From: a virus
Taxonomy: Duplodnaviria > Heunggongvirae > Uroviricota > Caudoviricetes
Virus record (IMG/VR): IMGVR_UViG_2667527608_000007
Length of the DNA: 9,003 nt
Reading direction: 5' to 3' (one strand)
Below, piece after piece: positions 1 through 7,326 of the stretch. The notes under the pieces were generated by a model. It worked only from the letters and a program-made list of their open reading frames with translations, was not told the origin of the DNA and did no database searches. Both the position numbers and the translations under genes were made by a program. Numbering within the stretch: position 1 is the stretch's first letter; each line of letters opens with the position of its first letter.

Positions 1-84
1 TACAATCGTCAGCGTCGTCACTCTCGTCTGGGGAATATCTCCCCGGCAGCCTTCAGGGAAAAATATCATCAGATGGCTGCTTAA
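1..84 (+). CDS. IS3-family transposase (OrfB), C-terminal 27 codons only; 5' part lies outside the window
   Basis: Open frame from position 1 to TAA at 82-84; translation YNRQRRHSRLGNISPAAFREKYHQMAA. Confidence 0.6.
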   Translation, partial: YNRQRRHSRLGNISPAAFREKYHQMAA

Positions 85-127: not shown

Positions 128-772
128 AATACAGGGTTACTGATAGTGACACCAATTTCAAAACAACCTTCAGACGTATTAACGTTTGGTAATAACGTTT
201 CCATTATCGCGTCCTCAACAATGAATTTTGTGATGCAGTGCCTGGTGCCTCCAGGTGACGTTAACCAGTTAACAATTAACGCCGGATACAGAGAATCCAA
301 CCATAACACTGTTTTTGGTTTTAACTGTTCCGCGTGCGCTTAGCCGCATTCACCGCATCACAAAATTCACTTTAAAAAGGGCGGCAGAGCAGTCACGGAG
401 TAAAACTGATACCGCCAAACGTCACCAGAAAATTGATAACAGAGGGCGTTGCAGCGGGGTTGTCACTTAAGCGTATGGTCAACCTGACAACCCGGTGTCC
501 TCAACGGGGGAAGGAATAACCCCGCCATACTTACCGCCGCGCCATTTCGCGGATTGCCACAACCGGAAGCGCACGGTCGACGAAAATTTAACGACAGGCT
601 ATCTATGAACCAGCTACCTCGCCGTGCGCTTTCGCGTTATGGTCTGACTTTTCAGGGAAATATCCTTTCAGTAAACTGTCAGTGCCGGATGCTCACCCGT
701 GTCCGGCGCAAGCACTCCACCTCACCCGTGGAGAACTCCTTAATTACCAACCTTAGCTTCGTTGGTTAGCTA

Positions 773-5501: not shown

Positions 5502-5897
5502 ATGGCGAAACCTTTTACACACGAACAGCGTGAAGAACTGAAGGCCCGAATTATCGGGCTGGTACGCAAAAATGAACGCATGACGATATCACAACTGGAG
5601 AGAGCGACGGGAGCAGGCTGGCATTCAGTCAGACGTTGCCTTGTGGATGTACTGGCTTGTGGCGATTTATACATGCCCGGTAAATACGGTGTTTTTACAT
5701 CAGAACAGGTGTATCGCGTATGGCGTAAGGCAGCGGAGAAAGCAACCGACCAGACATTGATTCGAAAGTTACCAGACGGAGAAATACGCCGCTACGACAG
5801 ACAACAGAACATAATCTGTGGCGAGTGCCGGAAGAGTGAAGTTATGCTGCGTGTACTGGCGTTCTATCAGGGCAATTTTCAGGAGGCGGTACTGTGA
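5502..5897 (+). CDS. Hypothetical protein (131 aa), possible HTH near the N-terminus
   Basis: Intact ORF tightly packed with its neighbours (stop overlaps the next start, GTGA); segment MTISQLERATGAGWHSVRRCL looks HTH-like. No family recognised with confidence. Confidence 0.5.
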   Translation: MAKPFTHEQREELKARIIGLVRKNERMTISQLERATGAGWHSVRRCLVDVLACGDLYMPGKYGVFTSEQVYRVWRKAAEKATDQTLIRKLPDGEIRRYDRQQNIICGECRKSEVMLRVLAFYQGNFQEAVL

Positions 5898-6653: not shown

Positions 6654-6758
6654 ATGTCGGATGATATTTCACTGGCAATGGAAGGTGCTCTGGCTGTTAT
6701 TGCTGTTGTGGGCGTTTACTGCCTGGTTGTGTTTTTGATGGATCGACTAGGGAACTGA
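6654..6758 (+). CDS. Micro-ORF, 34 aa predicted single-TM peptide (MSDDISLAMEGALAVIAVVGVYCLVVFLMDRLGN)
   Basis: AAAGGAGGG at 6642-6650 immediately upstream of the ATG; about 22 consecutive hydrophobic residues; below the ORF-track cut-off. Confidence 0.45.
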   Translation: MSDDISLAMEGALAVIAVVGVYCLVVFLMDRLGN

Positions 6759-6766
6759 ATTCATTA

Positions 6767-6788
6767 CGATATGGGAATTCCCATATCG
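6767..6788. promoter_or_regulatory. 22-bp perfect palindrome CGATATGGGAATTCCCATATCG, 13 bp upstream of the predicted hok promoter -35
   Basis: Exact dyad symmetry read from the sequence; no T-tract follows, so it is not a classical intrinsic terminator. Confidence 0.5.
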
Positions 6789-6800
6789 GGTAAAAACGGT

Positions 6801-6828
6801 TTGCGGTAAAGCGAGAGTTAAGTAGAAT
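6801..6828 (+). promoter_or_regulatory. Putative promoter of the mok/hok mRNA (-35 TTGCGG 6801-6806, 16-bp spacer, -10 TAGAAT 6823-6828)
   Basis: It sits just upstream of the 5' element (6833-6846) that is complementary to the mRNA 3' end, giving a transcript of about 420 nt ending at the terminator at 7254. Confidence 0.45.
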
Positions 6829-6889
6829 TGCTGCGGGTGCTTGAGGCTGTCTGCCTCGGGCATGCCACCGTAAGGCAGACAGAGAAAAG

Positions 6890-6955
6890 CCCCAGTTAAC
6901 ATTACGCGTCCTGCAAGACGCCTAACATTAATCTGAGGCCAATTTCATGCTAGAC
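6890..6955 (-). ncRNA. Putative Sok-like antisense RNA overlapping the mok translation-initiation region (predicted from a promoter only)
   Basis: Minus-strand -35 TTGCCT (6990..6985), 17-bp spacer, -10 TAACCT (6967..6962) would start a transcript antisense to the mok ribosome-binding site (GAGG 6934-6937) and start codon (6947). The 3' end is not defined. Confidence 0.25.
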
Positions 6956-7159
6956 ATATGTAGGTTAGCCTCTTACGCGCCGAAAGGCAAGGAGAAGCAG
7001 GCTATGAAGCAGCAAAAGGCGATGTTAATCGCCCTGATCGTCATCTGTATCACCGTCATAGTGACGGCACTGGTAACGAGGAAAGACCTCTGCGAGGTAC
7101 GAATCCGAACCGGCCAGACGGAGGTCGCTGTCTTCACAGCTTACGAACCTGAGGAGTAA
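6947..7159 (+). CDS. mok: Mok-like reading frame (70 aa), in frame with and containing hok
   Basis: MLDICRLASYAPKGKEKQAMKQQ... closely parallels my recollection of E. coli MokC (MLNTCRVPLTDRKVKEKRAMKQH...), where mok is an in-frame N-terminal extension of hok. GAGG ribosome-binding site 9 nt upstream. Confidence 0.6.
   Translation: MLDICRLASYAPKGKEKQAMKQQKAMLIALIVICITVIVTALVTRKDLCEVRIRTGQTEVAVFTAYEPEE
7004..7159 (+). CDS. hok: Hok/Gef-family type I toxin (51 aa)
   Basis: MKQQKAMLIALIVICITVIVTALVTRKDLCEVRIRTGQTEVAVFTAYEPEE is near-identical to my recollection of HokC/Gef and HokD/RelF. AAGGAG ribosome-binding site at 6988-6993; single TM helix; conserved Cys and the RTGQTEVAVF motif. Confidence 0.9.
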   Translation: MKQQKAMLIALIVICITVIVTALVTRKDLCEVRIRTGQTEVAVFTAYEPEE

Positions 7160-7228
7160 GAGACCCGGCGAGGGAGAAATCCCTCGCCACCTCTGATGAA
7201 TCAGGCATCCTCAACGCACCCGCACTTA

Positions 7229-7254
7229 ACCCGCTTCGGCGGGTTTTGTTTTTT
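7229..7254 (+). terminator. Rho-independent terminator of the hok transcript (stem ACCCGC/GCGGGT with TTCG loop, then T-run)
   Basis: ACCCGCTTCGGCGGGTTTTGTTTTTT read directly. An additional perfect 9-bp hairpin with GAAA loop (GGCGAGGGA-GAAA-TCCCTCGCC) lies at 7167-7188, just after the hok stop. Confidence 0.7.
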
Positions 7255-7326
7255 CCTGGCATTCTGGTTTACAATTCGCACGCCAGCCTGAACAACTGGC
7301 ACCTGCTGCGCCAGCAGAGACAACCG

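What the first reader, a model, noticed from the sequence alone, without database searches (positions are those of the whole stretch)
6890..6990. Candidate Sok-like antisense RNA against the mok initiation region
A plausible sigma-70 promoter on the minus strand (TTGCCT 6990..6985, 17-bp spacer, TAACCT 6967..6962) would start an antisense transcript near 6955 covering the mok start codon and its ribosome-binding site. That is where Sok antitoxin RNAs act in characterised hok/sok systems. I cannot define its 3' end; no canonical terminator is evident.
Basis: inference. Interest (0 to 1): 0.45.

Follow-up and report, generated by a model that had tools for sequence, protein, structure and literature searches.

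The report
Sok antitoxin RNA of prophage hok locus

Summary
As a consensus match they are no better than chance (7/12; 689 such sites in the window, about 748 in shuffles).

Comparative evidence supports the interpretation:
- The region is the leader of an intact hok-family type I toxin-antitoxin locus (Hok 50/51 identical to K-12 HokD; Rfam RF01794, 114 bits) in a lambdoid E. coli prophage.
- Across 50 non-redundant homologues from Escherichia to Photorhabdus, Pantoea and Erwinia, the -35 is TTGCCT or TTGACC. The -10 keeps A at position 2 and T at position 6 in 49/50.
- The promoter sits in the same place relative to the mok start codon in most loci.
- Both hexamers are identical to those of sokW of phage 933W/Sp5, where a published -10 mutation abolished the antitoxin effect.

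The predicted RNA is about 71 nt, 6955 to ~6885 on the minus strand: a 5' tail, a long hairpin, then GGGGCUUUU. The hairpin covaries and pairs better on the Sok strand (96-98% against 77-78%).

Verdict: a real but already known kind of element, left unannotated in RefSeq. Low interest.

The parts
6985..6990 (-). sok promoter -35 hexamer, TTGCCT
   Evidence: Read from the sequence. TTGCCT in 32 and TTGACC in 18 of 50 non-redundant homologues. Identical in 933W sokW. The same bases on the + strand overlap the hok SD (AGGAG 6990-6994) at 6990 and adjoin it, so part of the conservation may be due to that.
6962..6967 (-). sok promoter -10 hexamer, TAACCT (3/6 to TATAAT, but it keeps T1, A2 and T6)
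   Evidence: Across 50 homologues position 2 is A in 49, position 6 is T in 49 and position 1 is T in 40, while positions 3-5 vary. Identical in sokW, where -10 mutations abolished the antitoxin effect (PMC8621323).
6885..6955 (-). Predicted Sok antitoxin RNA, about 71 nt. The 5' end at G6955 is inferred; the 3' end lies somewhere in 6880-6888.
   Evidence: A rule (+1 is the 7th nt after the -10; the 3' end is the end of the U-run after GGGGC) reproduces the annotated sokW coordinates exactly (L001 1586-1656) and the annotated sokC 5' end (L004 553). Folds at -31.3 kcal/mol as 71 nt. PMC8621323 states that sokW has a 71-nt sequence complementary to the hokW 5'-UTR.
6941..6955 (-). Single-stranded 5' tail of Sok (GUCUAGCAUGAAAUU), complementary to the mok start codon (CAU = anti-AUG) and to the target loop
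   Evidence: Unpaired in the MFE fold of the 71-nt RNA; 9 nt are unpaired in the 76-nt fold. The most variable part among homologues: mean pairwise identity 0.64 and 0.52, against 0.88 and 0.78 for the hairpin. R1 Sok recognises its target through an 11-nt 5' tail (PMC1635323).
6888..6940 (-). Sok stem-loop (terminator hairpin); its 5' arm includes GCCUC, the anti-Shine-Dalgarno of mok
   Evidence: Covariation in homologues: 97.8% of cells paired, 30 double-change cells against 8.2 in shuffles, 0/500 shuffles as high. Pairs are canonical in 96-98% of cells on the Sok strand and 77-78% on the hok strand. The Sok strand is more stable in 49/49 homologues.
6880..6888 (-). U-rich tract UUUUCUCUG after the hairpin; probable 3' end of Sok
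   Evidence: GGGGCUUU(U)CU is kept in nearly all homologues. The annotated sokW ends at the position equivalent to 6885. The primer-defined R1 Sok extends about 9 nt past GGGGC, equivalent to about 6880.
6935..6938 (+). mok Shine-Dalgarno GAGG, covered by Sok
   Evidence: Read from the sequence; GAGG is nearly invariant in the homologue alignment.
6947..7159 (+). mok reading frame (70 codons), in frame with hok and containing it
   Evidence: The same arrangement as the annotated mokW/hokW and mokC/hokC.
6950..6956 (+). Loop CUAGACA of the Sok-target hairpin in the hok mRNA; contains a YUNR (CUAG) motif
   Evidence: Loop of the third hairpin in the RF01794 alignment. YUNR is present in 29/48 homologues against roughly 32% expected by chance. 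The U-turn role is from my own knowledge of Franch et al. 1999, listed as ref. 12 in PMC1635323.
7004..7159 (+). hok toxin gene (51 aa)
   Evidence: Pfam HOK_GEF 83.2 bits, cut-off 22. 50/51 identical to K-12 HokD and 46/51 to HokW. RefSeq annotates it as hokD.
6835..7009 (+). hok mRNA leader (match to Rfam RF01794 'sok', which is modelled on the mRNA strand)
   Evidence: 114.3 bits, gathering score 59. The orientation test on K-12 and 933W shows the model lies on the hok strand, opposite to the annotated sokC and sokW.
6801..6828 (+). Probable hok promoter: TTGCGG - 16 bp - TAGAAT, placing +1 near 6835
   Evidence: Found in the pattern count. The RF01794 model starts at 6835. Inferred, not tested.
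6835..6846 (+). tac element at the 5' end of the hok mRNA
   Evidence: Pairs with 7209-7221 in the MFE fold of the 419-nt mRNA; duplex energy -24.3 kcal/mol.
7209..7221 (+). fbi (fold-back inhibition) element near the 3' end of the hok mRNA
   Evidence: The role follows the R1 model described in PMC9841398.
7228..7255 (+). Intrinsic terminator of the hok mRNA
   Evidence: Terminator scan: 7-bp stem with 5 GC pairs, then TTGTTTTTTC.

Best explanation
Window 6955 to ~6885 on the minus strand encodes the Sok antitoxin RNA of an intact hok/mok/sok type I toxin-antitoxin cassette (about 6800-7255). The cassette sits in a Rac/Qin-like lambdoid prophage of E. coli. It is the complete form of the hokD (relF) locus that K-12 has lost upstream of the toxin gene, and a close relative of hokW-sokW of Stx phage 933W/Sp5.

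Proposed mechanism (shown for R1 and partly for sokW; inferred here):
1. A constitutive sigma-70 promoter (TTGCCT-17-TAACCT), embedded in the first codons of mok and reading the opposite way, starts transcription at G6955.
2. Transcription stops at a long hairpin plus U-tract, giving an RNA of about 71 nt.
3. The single-stranded 5' tail of this RNA contacts the loop (CUAGACA) of the target hairpin, which forms only in the 3'-processed, refolded hok mRNA.
4. Pairing then spreads over the mok start codon and Shine-Dalgarno sequence.
5. Because hok translation depends on translation of mok, blocking mok blocks Hok. The duplex is then cut by RNase III.
6. When Sok, which is short-lived in R1, is no longer replenished (loss of the element or, as shown for sokW, prophage induction), the stable hok mRNA is translated and Hok damages the inner membrane.
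For: Shown on this sequence:
- The hexamers, spacing and +1 geometry are as described.
- Hok-family toxin: Pfam HOK_GEF 83 bits; 50/51 identical to HokD.
- mok is in frame and overlaps hok.
- The leader matches RF01794 at 114 bits. That model is oriented as the hok mRNA, opposite to the annotated sokC and sokW.
- The minus strand folds into a tail, a hairpin and a U-tract: -32.9 kcal/mol, z = -6.3. The complementary strand gives -17.8 kcal/mol, z = -3.7.
- tac/fbi pairing joins 6835-6846 with 7209-7221.

Shown by comparison:
- The promoter is conserved in 50 homologues from at least six genera. The -10 positions that matter most (A2, T6) are kept in 49/50 each, while the middle positions vary. 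The spacer is 17-18 bp, and the anti-AUG lies 12 nt after the -10 in 41 of the 50 scored loci.
- The Sok strand is more stable than its complement in 49/49 homologues.
- The hairpin covaries and is asymmetric between strands through G.U pairs.
- The same rule recovers the annotated sokW exactly and the annotated sokC 5' end.
- An R1-type parB locus has the same layout: TTGCGC-17-TATCCT-6 nt-G.

Published experiments on the closest relative (91% identical locus, identical hexamers):
- sokW is expressed from its own promoter.
- -10 mutations unmask HokW toxicity, and sokW supplied in trans partly rescues.
- A Northern blot detects sokW, and it disappears after mitomycin C.
- RNase III and Hfq contribute to the antitoxin effect (PMC8621323).

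The R1 mechanism is described in PMC9841398, PMC1635323 and PMC4147584.
Against: - There is no expression data for this locus or this strain.
- The hexamers score only 7/12 (the -10 only 3/6), and the generic scan does not call them.
- Every conserved Sok feature lies on DNA that also encodes conserved hok-mRNA features: the hok SD overlaps and adjoins the -35, the dcb/mok codons lie under the -10, and the tac-stem 3' arm lies under the U-tract. Conservation alone therefore cannot be credited to Sok. Only the G.U strand asymmetry and the sokW experiments are strand-specific.
- The 5' and 3' ends are inferred by homology, not mapped.
- The window differs from sokW at 7 of 71 Sok positions, and at one position between the -10 and +1 (6957). 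An effect on promoter strength or RNA stability cannot be excluded.
Confidence: 0.93

Rival explanations
1. The locus is a hok/sok homologue, but this copy's sok promoter is silent or too weak. The minus-strand hexamers would then survive only as a by-product of constraints on the hok mRNA leader (mok codons, hok SD, dcb pairing), leaving the toxin controlled only by mRNA folding or itself not expressed.
For: The -10 is only 3/6 and the pair 7/12, so neither is called by the scan, and such matches are not above chance. All conserved blocks are dual-use on the + strand. Reviews report that many chromosomal hok/sok copies are decayed (PMC4147584), and decayed copies were seen here: L015 has a mutated -35, L065 has lost the mok ATG, and K-12 hokD is truncated.
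Against: Both hexamers are identical to those of sokW, which is functional (PMC8621323). All cassette parts are intact: hok, mok, SDs, tac/fbi and terminator. The hairpin's G.U pairs favour the Sok strand, which would not be maintained without a minus-strand RNA. An intact, translatable hok without an antitoxin would be counter-selected.
Confidence: 0.05
2. The small RNA is on the + strand. The Rfam 'sok' hit at 6835-7009 (+) would then be the antitoxin gene itself, and nothing functional is made from the minus strand.
For: RF01794 is labelled 'sok antitoxin' and hits the + strand at 114 bits.
Against: The same model hits the hokC/mokC strand in K-12 and the hokW strand in 933W, opposite to the curated sokC and sokW features. 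The model runs from the hok mRNA 5' end to the hok AUG (its last three consensus bases are AUG), so it describes the mRNA leader. R1 Sok is antisense to the leader (PMC1635323).
Confidence: 0.01
3. The minus-strand hairpin and U-tract terminate some longer minus-strand transcript coming from downstream, rather than a dedicated ~71-nt RNA.
For: The hairpin would work as a terminator for any minus-strand transcription that enters it.
Against: In the identical RefSeq region, every annotated gene from the prophage cro-like gene onward, including those flanking the locus, is on the + strand. No minus-strand gene is annotated within about 6 kb downstream of the locus. A conserved promoter lies at a fixed distance upstream of the hairpin in 50 homologues found in unrelated genomic contexts.
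Confidence: 0.01

Closest known systems
sokW of hokW-sokW (Stx2 phages 933W and VT2-Sakai/Sp5)
   Same: The locus is about 91% identical over 432 bp. The -35 and -10 are identical, the spacer is 17 bp, the RNA is 71 nt, and the long hairpin and GGGGCUUUU tail are the same. Both lie in lambdoid prophages. The annotated sokW coordinates map exactly to window 6885-6955.
   Different: Seven of 71 Sok positions differ, six of them in the 5' recognition tail, plus one hairpin bulge and one loop base among them; one further base differs in the promoter spacer and one between the -10 and +1. The toxin is 46/51 identical to HokW but 50/51 to HokD. The position in the prophage differs: here the locus lies between the replication/DUF551 genes and the DUF968-rusA-Q region, whereas in 933W it is near one end of the linear phage record, next to a ygiW-like gene. 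The hok mRNA terminator region is unrelated beyond about 7226.
hokD (relF) of E. coli K-12, Qin prophage
   Same: The toxin is 50/51 identical. The DNA is 97% identical from window 6990 to 7253 (H22). The downstream neighbours are the same (a hypothetical protein, then DUF968/ydfU).
   Different: K-12 lacks everything upstream of about 6990, where relB-relE sit instead. It therefore has no mok start, no Sok and no sok promoter. The window carries the complete cassette.
sokC/mokC/hokC (gef) of E. coli K-12
   Same: The layout is the same. The sokC 5' end is 8 nt inside mokC, matching 6955 against the ATG at 6947. The order is promoter, 6 nt, then +1 G, and the GGGGCUUUUCUCU tail is the same. 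RF01794 scores 118 bits.
   Different: sokC belongs to the short class (a 53-nt core; annotated as 59 nt), because the window's hairpin has about 18 extra nt. Its -35 is TTGACC and its -10 is CACTCT.
Sok of hok/sok (parB) of plasmid R1, the founding member
   Same: It is antisense to the mok translation-initiation region, with a single-stranded 5' tail and one stable stem-loop (64 nt, 11-nt tail; PMC1635323). An R1-type locus shows TTGCGC-17-TATCCT-6 nt-G, and the RNA has CAU, then GCCUC, then the hairpin, then GGGGCUAUCUUCUU. The tac/fbi logic of the mRNA is shared (PMC9841398).
   Different: Only short stretches of DNA are alignable (about 78% over about 80 bp in plasmid Hok-family loci). 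HokW shares 44% identity with R1 Hok (PMC8621323). R1 is on a plasmid rather than in a prophage, and its hairpin is shorter.

Membership tests
hok/sok type I toxin-antitoxin system (Sok antisense RNA) | A Hok/Gef-family small membrane toxin is encoded on the opposite strand, downstream of the antisense target | tested here: met
   Pfam PF01848 HOK_GEF: 83.2 bits (cut-off 22), E = 1e-23. 50/51 identical to K-12 HokD.
hok/sok type I toxin-antitoxin system (Sok antisense RNA) | A mok leader reading frame overlaps hok, with its own SD, and its initiation region is the antisense target | tested here: met
   A 70-codon ORF at 6947-7159 contains hok in frame, with GAGG 8 nt upstream of its ATG. The arrangement matches the annotated mokW and mokC.
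hok/sok type I toxin-antitoxin system (Sok antisense RNA) | The hok mRNA leader has the family's sequence and structure (Rfam RF01794) | tested here: met
   114.3 bits against a gathering score of 59, full length 1-157, on the hok strand. The model's orientation was verified on K-12 sokC and 933W sokW.
hok/sok type I toxin-antitoxin system (Sok antisense RNA) | A promoter inside the mok 5' region, reading antisense, puts +1 a few nt inside mok | tested here: met
   TTGCCT-17-TAACCT-6 nt-G6955. Conserved in 50 homologues, with A2 and T6 of the -10 each kept in 49/50. The geometry matches sokC, sokW and an R1-type locus. Caveat: the hexamers alone are at chance level.
hok/sok type I toxin-antitoxin system (Sok antisense RNA) | The Sok RNA is a single-stranded 5' tail plus one stable stem-loop ending in a U-rich 3' end (about 50-70 nt) | tested here: met
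   A 71-nt RNA with a 9-15-nt tail and a hairpin, -31 to -33 kcal/mol, z = -6.3. Covariation and strand asymmetry support it. The R1 architecture is described in PMC1635323.
hok/sok type I toxin-antitoxin system (Sok antisense RNA) | Long-range 5'-3' pairing (tac/fbi) keeps the full-length hok mRNA closed | tested here: met
   In the MFE fold of 6835-7253, positions 6835-6846 pair with 7209-7221; the duplex energy is -24.3 kcal/mol. This is a prediction only.
hok/sok type I toxin-antitoxin system (Sok antisense RNA) | The target loop presents a YUNR U-turn motif to the Sok 5' tail | tested here: met
   CUAG at 6950-6953 lies in the loop of the target hairpin. Across the family it is only moderately enriched: 29/48 against about 32% expected by chance.
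hok/sok type I toxin-antitoxin system (Sok antisense RNA) | The antisense RNA is actually transcribed and neutralises the toxin | not testable with these tools
   Shown for sokW, the closest relative, by promoter-less mutants, rescue in trans and Northern blot (PMC8621323). Not shown for this allele.
hok/sok type I toxin-antitoxin system (Sok antisense RNA) | Sok is unstable while the hok mRNA is stable, and RNase III cleaves the duplex | not testable with these tools
   Known for R1 (PMC1635323, PMC9841398). RNase III and Hfq dependence is reported for sokW.

The most novel reading that the evidence does not exclude
Two features might carry function beyond 'one more Sok'.

1. The 5' recognition tail is the fastest-evolving part of Sok (mean pairwise identity 0.52-0.64, against 0.78-0.88 for the hairpin). 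Genomes carry up to 11 related loci, and this strain has about 6. The tail might therefore be diversifying so that co-resident hok/sok cassettes are insulated from each other's antitoxins.
2. Prophage-type Soks form a distinct long-hairpin class (68-72 nt against 49-53 nt). The extra length might tune stability or RNase III/Hfq dependence for a role in induction-timed lysis, as reported for Sp5, rather than in post-segregational killing.
Probability: 0.25. Interest if true: 0.3.

Novelty: already known. Interest (0 to 1): 0.1.

Why it matters
The practical value is in annotation. This antitoxin RNA and its promoter occur in 3,825 of 5,426 complete E. coli genomes, yet no RefSeq feature lies under them. 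The Rfam model named 'sok' matches the opposite (mRNA) strand, so automated pipelines can omit the RNA or place it on the wrong strand.

Biologically, the window shows the complete ancestral form of the hokD/relF locus, which K-12 carries only as a truncated toxin gene. It adds nothing new about how hok/sok systems work.

Tried and rejected
- Generic promoter/terminator scan. It called neither the sok promoter nor the Sok terminator. I rejected it as a test because its templates exclude 3/6 -10 boxes and bulged long stems.
- Chance test of the hexamers. It showed that they carry no statistical weight alone, so I did not use them as evidence.
- First tail-finding regex. It mis-cut 17 sequences at an internal GGGCCT. 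It was fixed, and the summary statistics were discarded.
- IncHI1 plasmid locus L066. It is a different Hok subfamily, not R1. It was kept only as one more example of the TTGCAT/TACTCT arrangement.
- R1-type locus L067. The published hok primers match exactly, but the sok primers differ at a few tail positions. Its rule-defined Sok is 59 nt, not the published 64 nt. I therefore used it for layout only, not to fix exact ends.
- Searches were script errors.
- PMC2593563 is not held.
- I considered and rejected the + strand reading of the Rfam hit.
- Three loci of the relBE-hokD (K-12) type, L016, L047 and L055, do not align upstream and were excluded. L015 and L065 look decayed and were excluded from the fold statistics.

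Full report
**What is in the sequence**

On the minus strand, TTGCCT lies at 6990-6985 and TAACCT at 6967-6962, with 17 bp between them. A G at 6955 is the seventh base after the -10. On the plus strand there is a GAGG at 6935-6938. An ATG at 6947 opens a 70-codon frame that runs to 7159 and contains, in frame, a 51-codon hok gene starting at 7004. A transcript starting at 6955 would therefore be antisense to the mok start codon and its ribosome-binding site, as claimed.

As a pattern the promoter is weak. It scores 7/12 to the consensus and only 3/6 in the -10, and the scan tool does not call it. The window contains 689 sites of at least that quality, against about 748 in shuffles. Even the stricter form TTGnnn-16..18-TAnnnT occurs 8 times, against 9.7 expected. 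The hexamers alone are therefore no evidence.

**What the locus is**

The window is 100% identical to a lambdoid (Rac/Qin-like) prophage in E. coli 2011C-4251. That region carries dicB, racR, replication genes, DUF968, rusA and an antiterminator. RefSeq annotates the toxin as hokD and nothing else at this spot.

The evidence that this is a hok-family locus:
- The toxin matches Pfam HOK_GEF at 83 bits.
- It is 50/51 identical to K-12 HokD and 46/51 to HokW.
- Rfam RF01794 ('sok') matches 6835-7009 at 114 bits, but on the plus strand.

I tested what that strand means. In K-12 the same model hits the hokC/mokC strand, and in 933W it hits the hokW strand. In both cases this is opposite to the curated sokC and sokW features. 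The model runs from the hok mRNA 5' end to the hok AUG, so it describes the mRNA leader. A plus-strand hit therefore predicts Sok on the minus strand.

The rest of the cassette is also intact:
- A likely hok promoter, TTGCGG-16-TAGAAT, lies at 6801-6828.
- The mRNA 5' end (6835-6846) pairs with 7209-7221 in the MFE fold of the 419-nt mRNA. This is the tac/fbi arrangement.
- An intrinsic terminator follows at 7228-7255.

K-12's hokD matches only from about 6990 onward, because relBE replaces the upstream part. The window is therefore the complete form of that locus.

**The antisense RNA itself**

The minus strand from 6955 reads GUCUAGCAUGAAAUU, then a long bulged hairpin (6940-6888), then UUUUCUCUG.
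- The 76-nt stretch 6955-6880 folds at -32.9 kcal/mol with z = -6.3.
- The 71-nt complementary strand (6885-6955) reaches only -17.8 kcal/mol, z = -3.7.

The scan tool misses the hairpin because of its length and bulges.

GenBank annotates a 71-nt 'SokW antisense RNA' in 933W and VT2-Sakai. I applied a simple rule: +1 is the 7th nt after the -10, and the 3' end is the end of the U-run after GGGGC. The rule returns exactly those coordinates in 933W, the curated 5' end of sokC in K-12, and 6885-6955 in the window.

An R1-type parB locus, verified with the published hok primers, has the same layout: TTGCGC-17-TATCCT-6 nt-G. Its RNA then has CAU, GCCUC, a hairpin and GGGGCUAUCUUCUU.

**Comparative test**

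A scan of one genome per species returned 60 loci from Escherichia, Shigella, Kluyvera, Citrobacter, Pseudocitrobacter, Photorhabdus, Pantoea and Erwinia. A few hits come from contigs labelled as unrelated taxa; these are probably contaminants.

Promoter, in the 50 non-redundant loci with an intact leader and a recognisable -35:
- The -35 is TTGCCT in 32 and TTGACC in 18.
- The spacer is 17-18 bp.
- The -10 has A at position 2 in 49/50, T at position 6 in 49/50 and T at position 1 in 40/50, while positions 3-5 vary.
- The complement of the mok ATG lies 12 nt after the -10 in 41 of the 50 scored loci.

This is how a real -10 element is conserved. However, the same bases also serve the hok mRNA: the hok SD overlaps and adjoins the -35, and the dcb/mok codons lie under the -10. 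This evidence is therefore supportive but not exclusive.

Strand-specific evidence comes from the hairpin:
- The Sok strand is more stable than its complement in 49/49 homologues, with means of -22.1 and -12.5 kcal/mol.
- In the short class, 97.8% of cells pair. There are 30 double-change cells against 8.2 in shuffles, with 0/500 shuffles as high, and slid controls give 36-57% pairing.
- About 20% of the pairs are G.U on the Sok strand. The same helix is therefore canonical in 96-98% of cells on the Sok strand but only 77-78% on the hok strand.

**Experimental support in the literature**

For hokW-sokW of Sp5, Takada et al. 2021 (PMC8621323) reported that:
- sokW is expressed from its own promoter;
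- substitutions around its -10 element unmask HokW toxicity;
- sokW supplied in trans partly rescues;
- a Northern blot detects sokW, and the RNA disappears after mitomycin C;
- RNase III and Hfq contribute to the antitoxin effect;
- deleting the locus halves phage release.

The window and 933W differ at 10 of 106 positions across Sok plus its promoter, and none of the differences is in either hexamer. Six are in the 5' tail, one is in a hairpin bulge, one in the loop, one in the spacer and one between the -10 and +1.

The general mechanism comes from work on plasmid R1 (PMC9841398, PMC1635323, PMC4147584):
- Sok's 5' tail recognises a loop in the 3'-processed hok mRNA.
- Pairing blocks mok translation, and hok translation depends on mok.
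- RNase III cleaves the duplex.
- Sok is unstable and the hok mRNA is stable.

**Conclusion**

The feature is the Sok antitoxin RNA of a complete hokD/hokW-type cassette, about 71 nt long, running from 6955 to ~6885 on the minus strand. What remains inferred for this copy is expression, the exact ends and activity.

It is an already known kind of element and very common: the Sok and promoter segment is present in 3,825 of 5,426 complete E. coli genomes, with no RefSeq feature under it. Interest is therefore low.

Two modest leads remain:
- The recognition tail is much more variable than the hairpin.
- There are two size classes of Sok, 49-53 nt and 68-72 nt, and the long one includes the prophage-type loci.

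Noticed in passing
window 379-430, minus strand: A full-length DicF sRNA (Rfam RF00039, 76.7 bits against a gathering score of 48), next to dicB in the identical RefSeq region. No ncRNA feature is listed there in that record, although the locus-tag numbering skips one tag between dicB and ydfC.
   Followed up: partly
window 6835-7009 (+); also L004 502-654 (-) and L001 1536-1710 (+): Rfam RF01794, named 'sok antitoxin', is modelled on the hok mRNA leader strand, from the mRNA 5' end to the hok AUG. It is not modelled on the Sok strand. Strand calls taken from it are opposite to the curated sokC and sokW features.
   Followed up: yes
window 6767-6788: A perfect 22-bp palindrome, CGATATGGGAATTCCCATATCG, lies between the small upstream ORF and the hok promoter. 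It is outside the part of the cassette conserved with 933W. It could be a terminator stem or a protein-binding site.
   Followed up: no
window 6654-6758, plus strand: A 34-aa hydrophobic ORF (MSDDISLAMEGALAVIAVVGVYCLVVFLMDRLGN) lies directly upstream of the hok cassette. RefSeq annotates it as a hypothetical protein and it has no Pfam match. A terminator-like site sits inside it at 6709-6725.
   Followed up: partly
L004, L019-L021, L024, L037, L040, L051, L064 versus the window (region equivalent to 6962-6990): The -35 exists in two forms that differ by a 1-nt indel (TTGCCT and TTGACC). The hokC group carries a second, compensating 1-nt deletion next to the -10, which keeps both the 17-bp spacer and the mok frame. 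Other loci keep an 18-bp spacer, and there the Mok N-terminus no longer aligns in frame.
   Followed up: partly
Sok homologues in L001-L064 (alignments A2 and A3): Sok RNAs fall into two size classes: 49-53 nt (hokC-like, Photorhabdus, Pantoea, Erwinia) and 68-72 nt (the window, 933W and hokD/W-like loci). They differ by an extension of about 18 nt at the tip of the hairpin. In both classes the 5' tail is far more variable than the hairpin.
   Followed up: partly
L010, L014, L042, L054, L059 (genome-contig hits): Near-identical E. coli-type hok/sok loci turn up on contigs labelled Veillonella, Xanthomonas, Acinetobacter, 'Candidatus Scatousia' and Haemophilus MAGs. These are most likely contamination or mis-binned contigs.
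   Followed up: no
window about 5502-5897 (L003 6703-7098): The DUF977-family gene of the prophage is annotated as a pseudogene with an internal stop in the identical RefSeq record, as is a TerB-family gene further downstream. This suggests the prophage is partly decayed.
   Followed up: no
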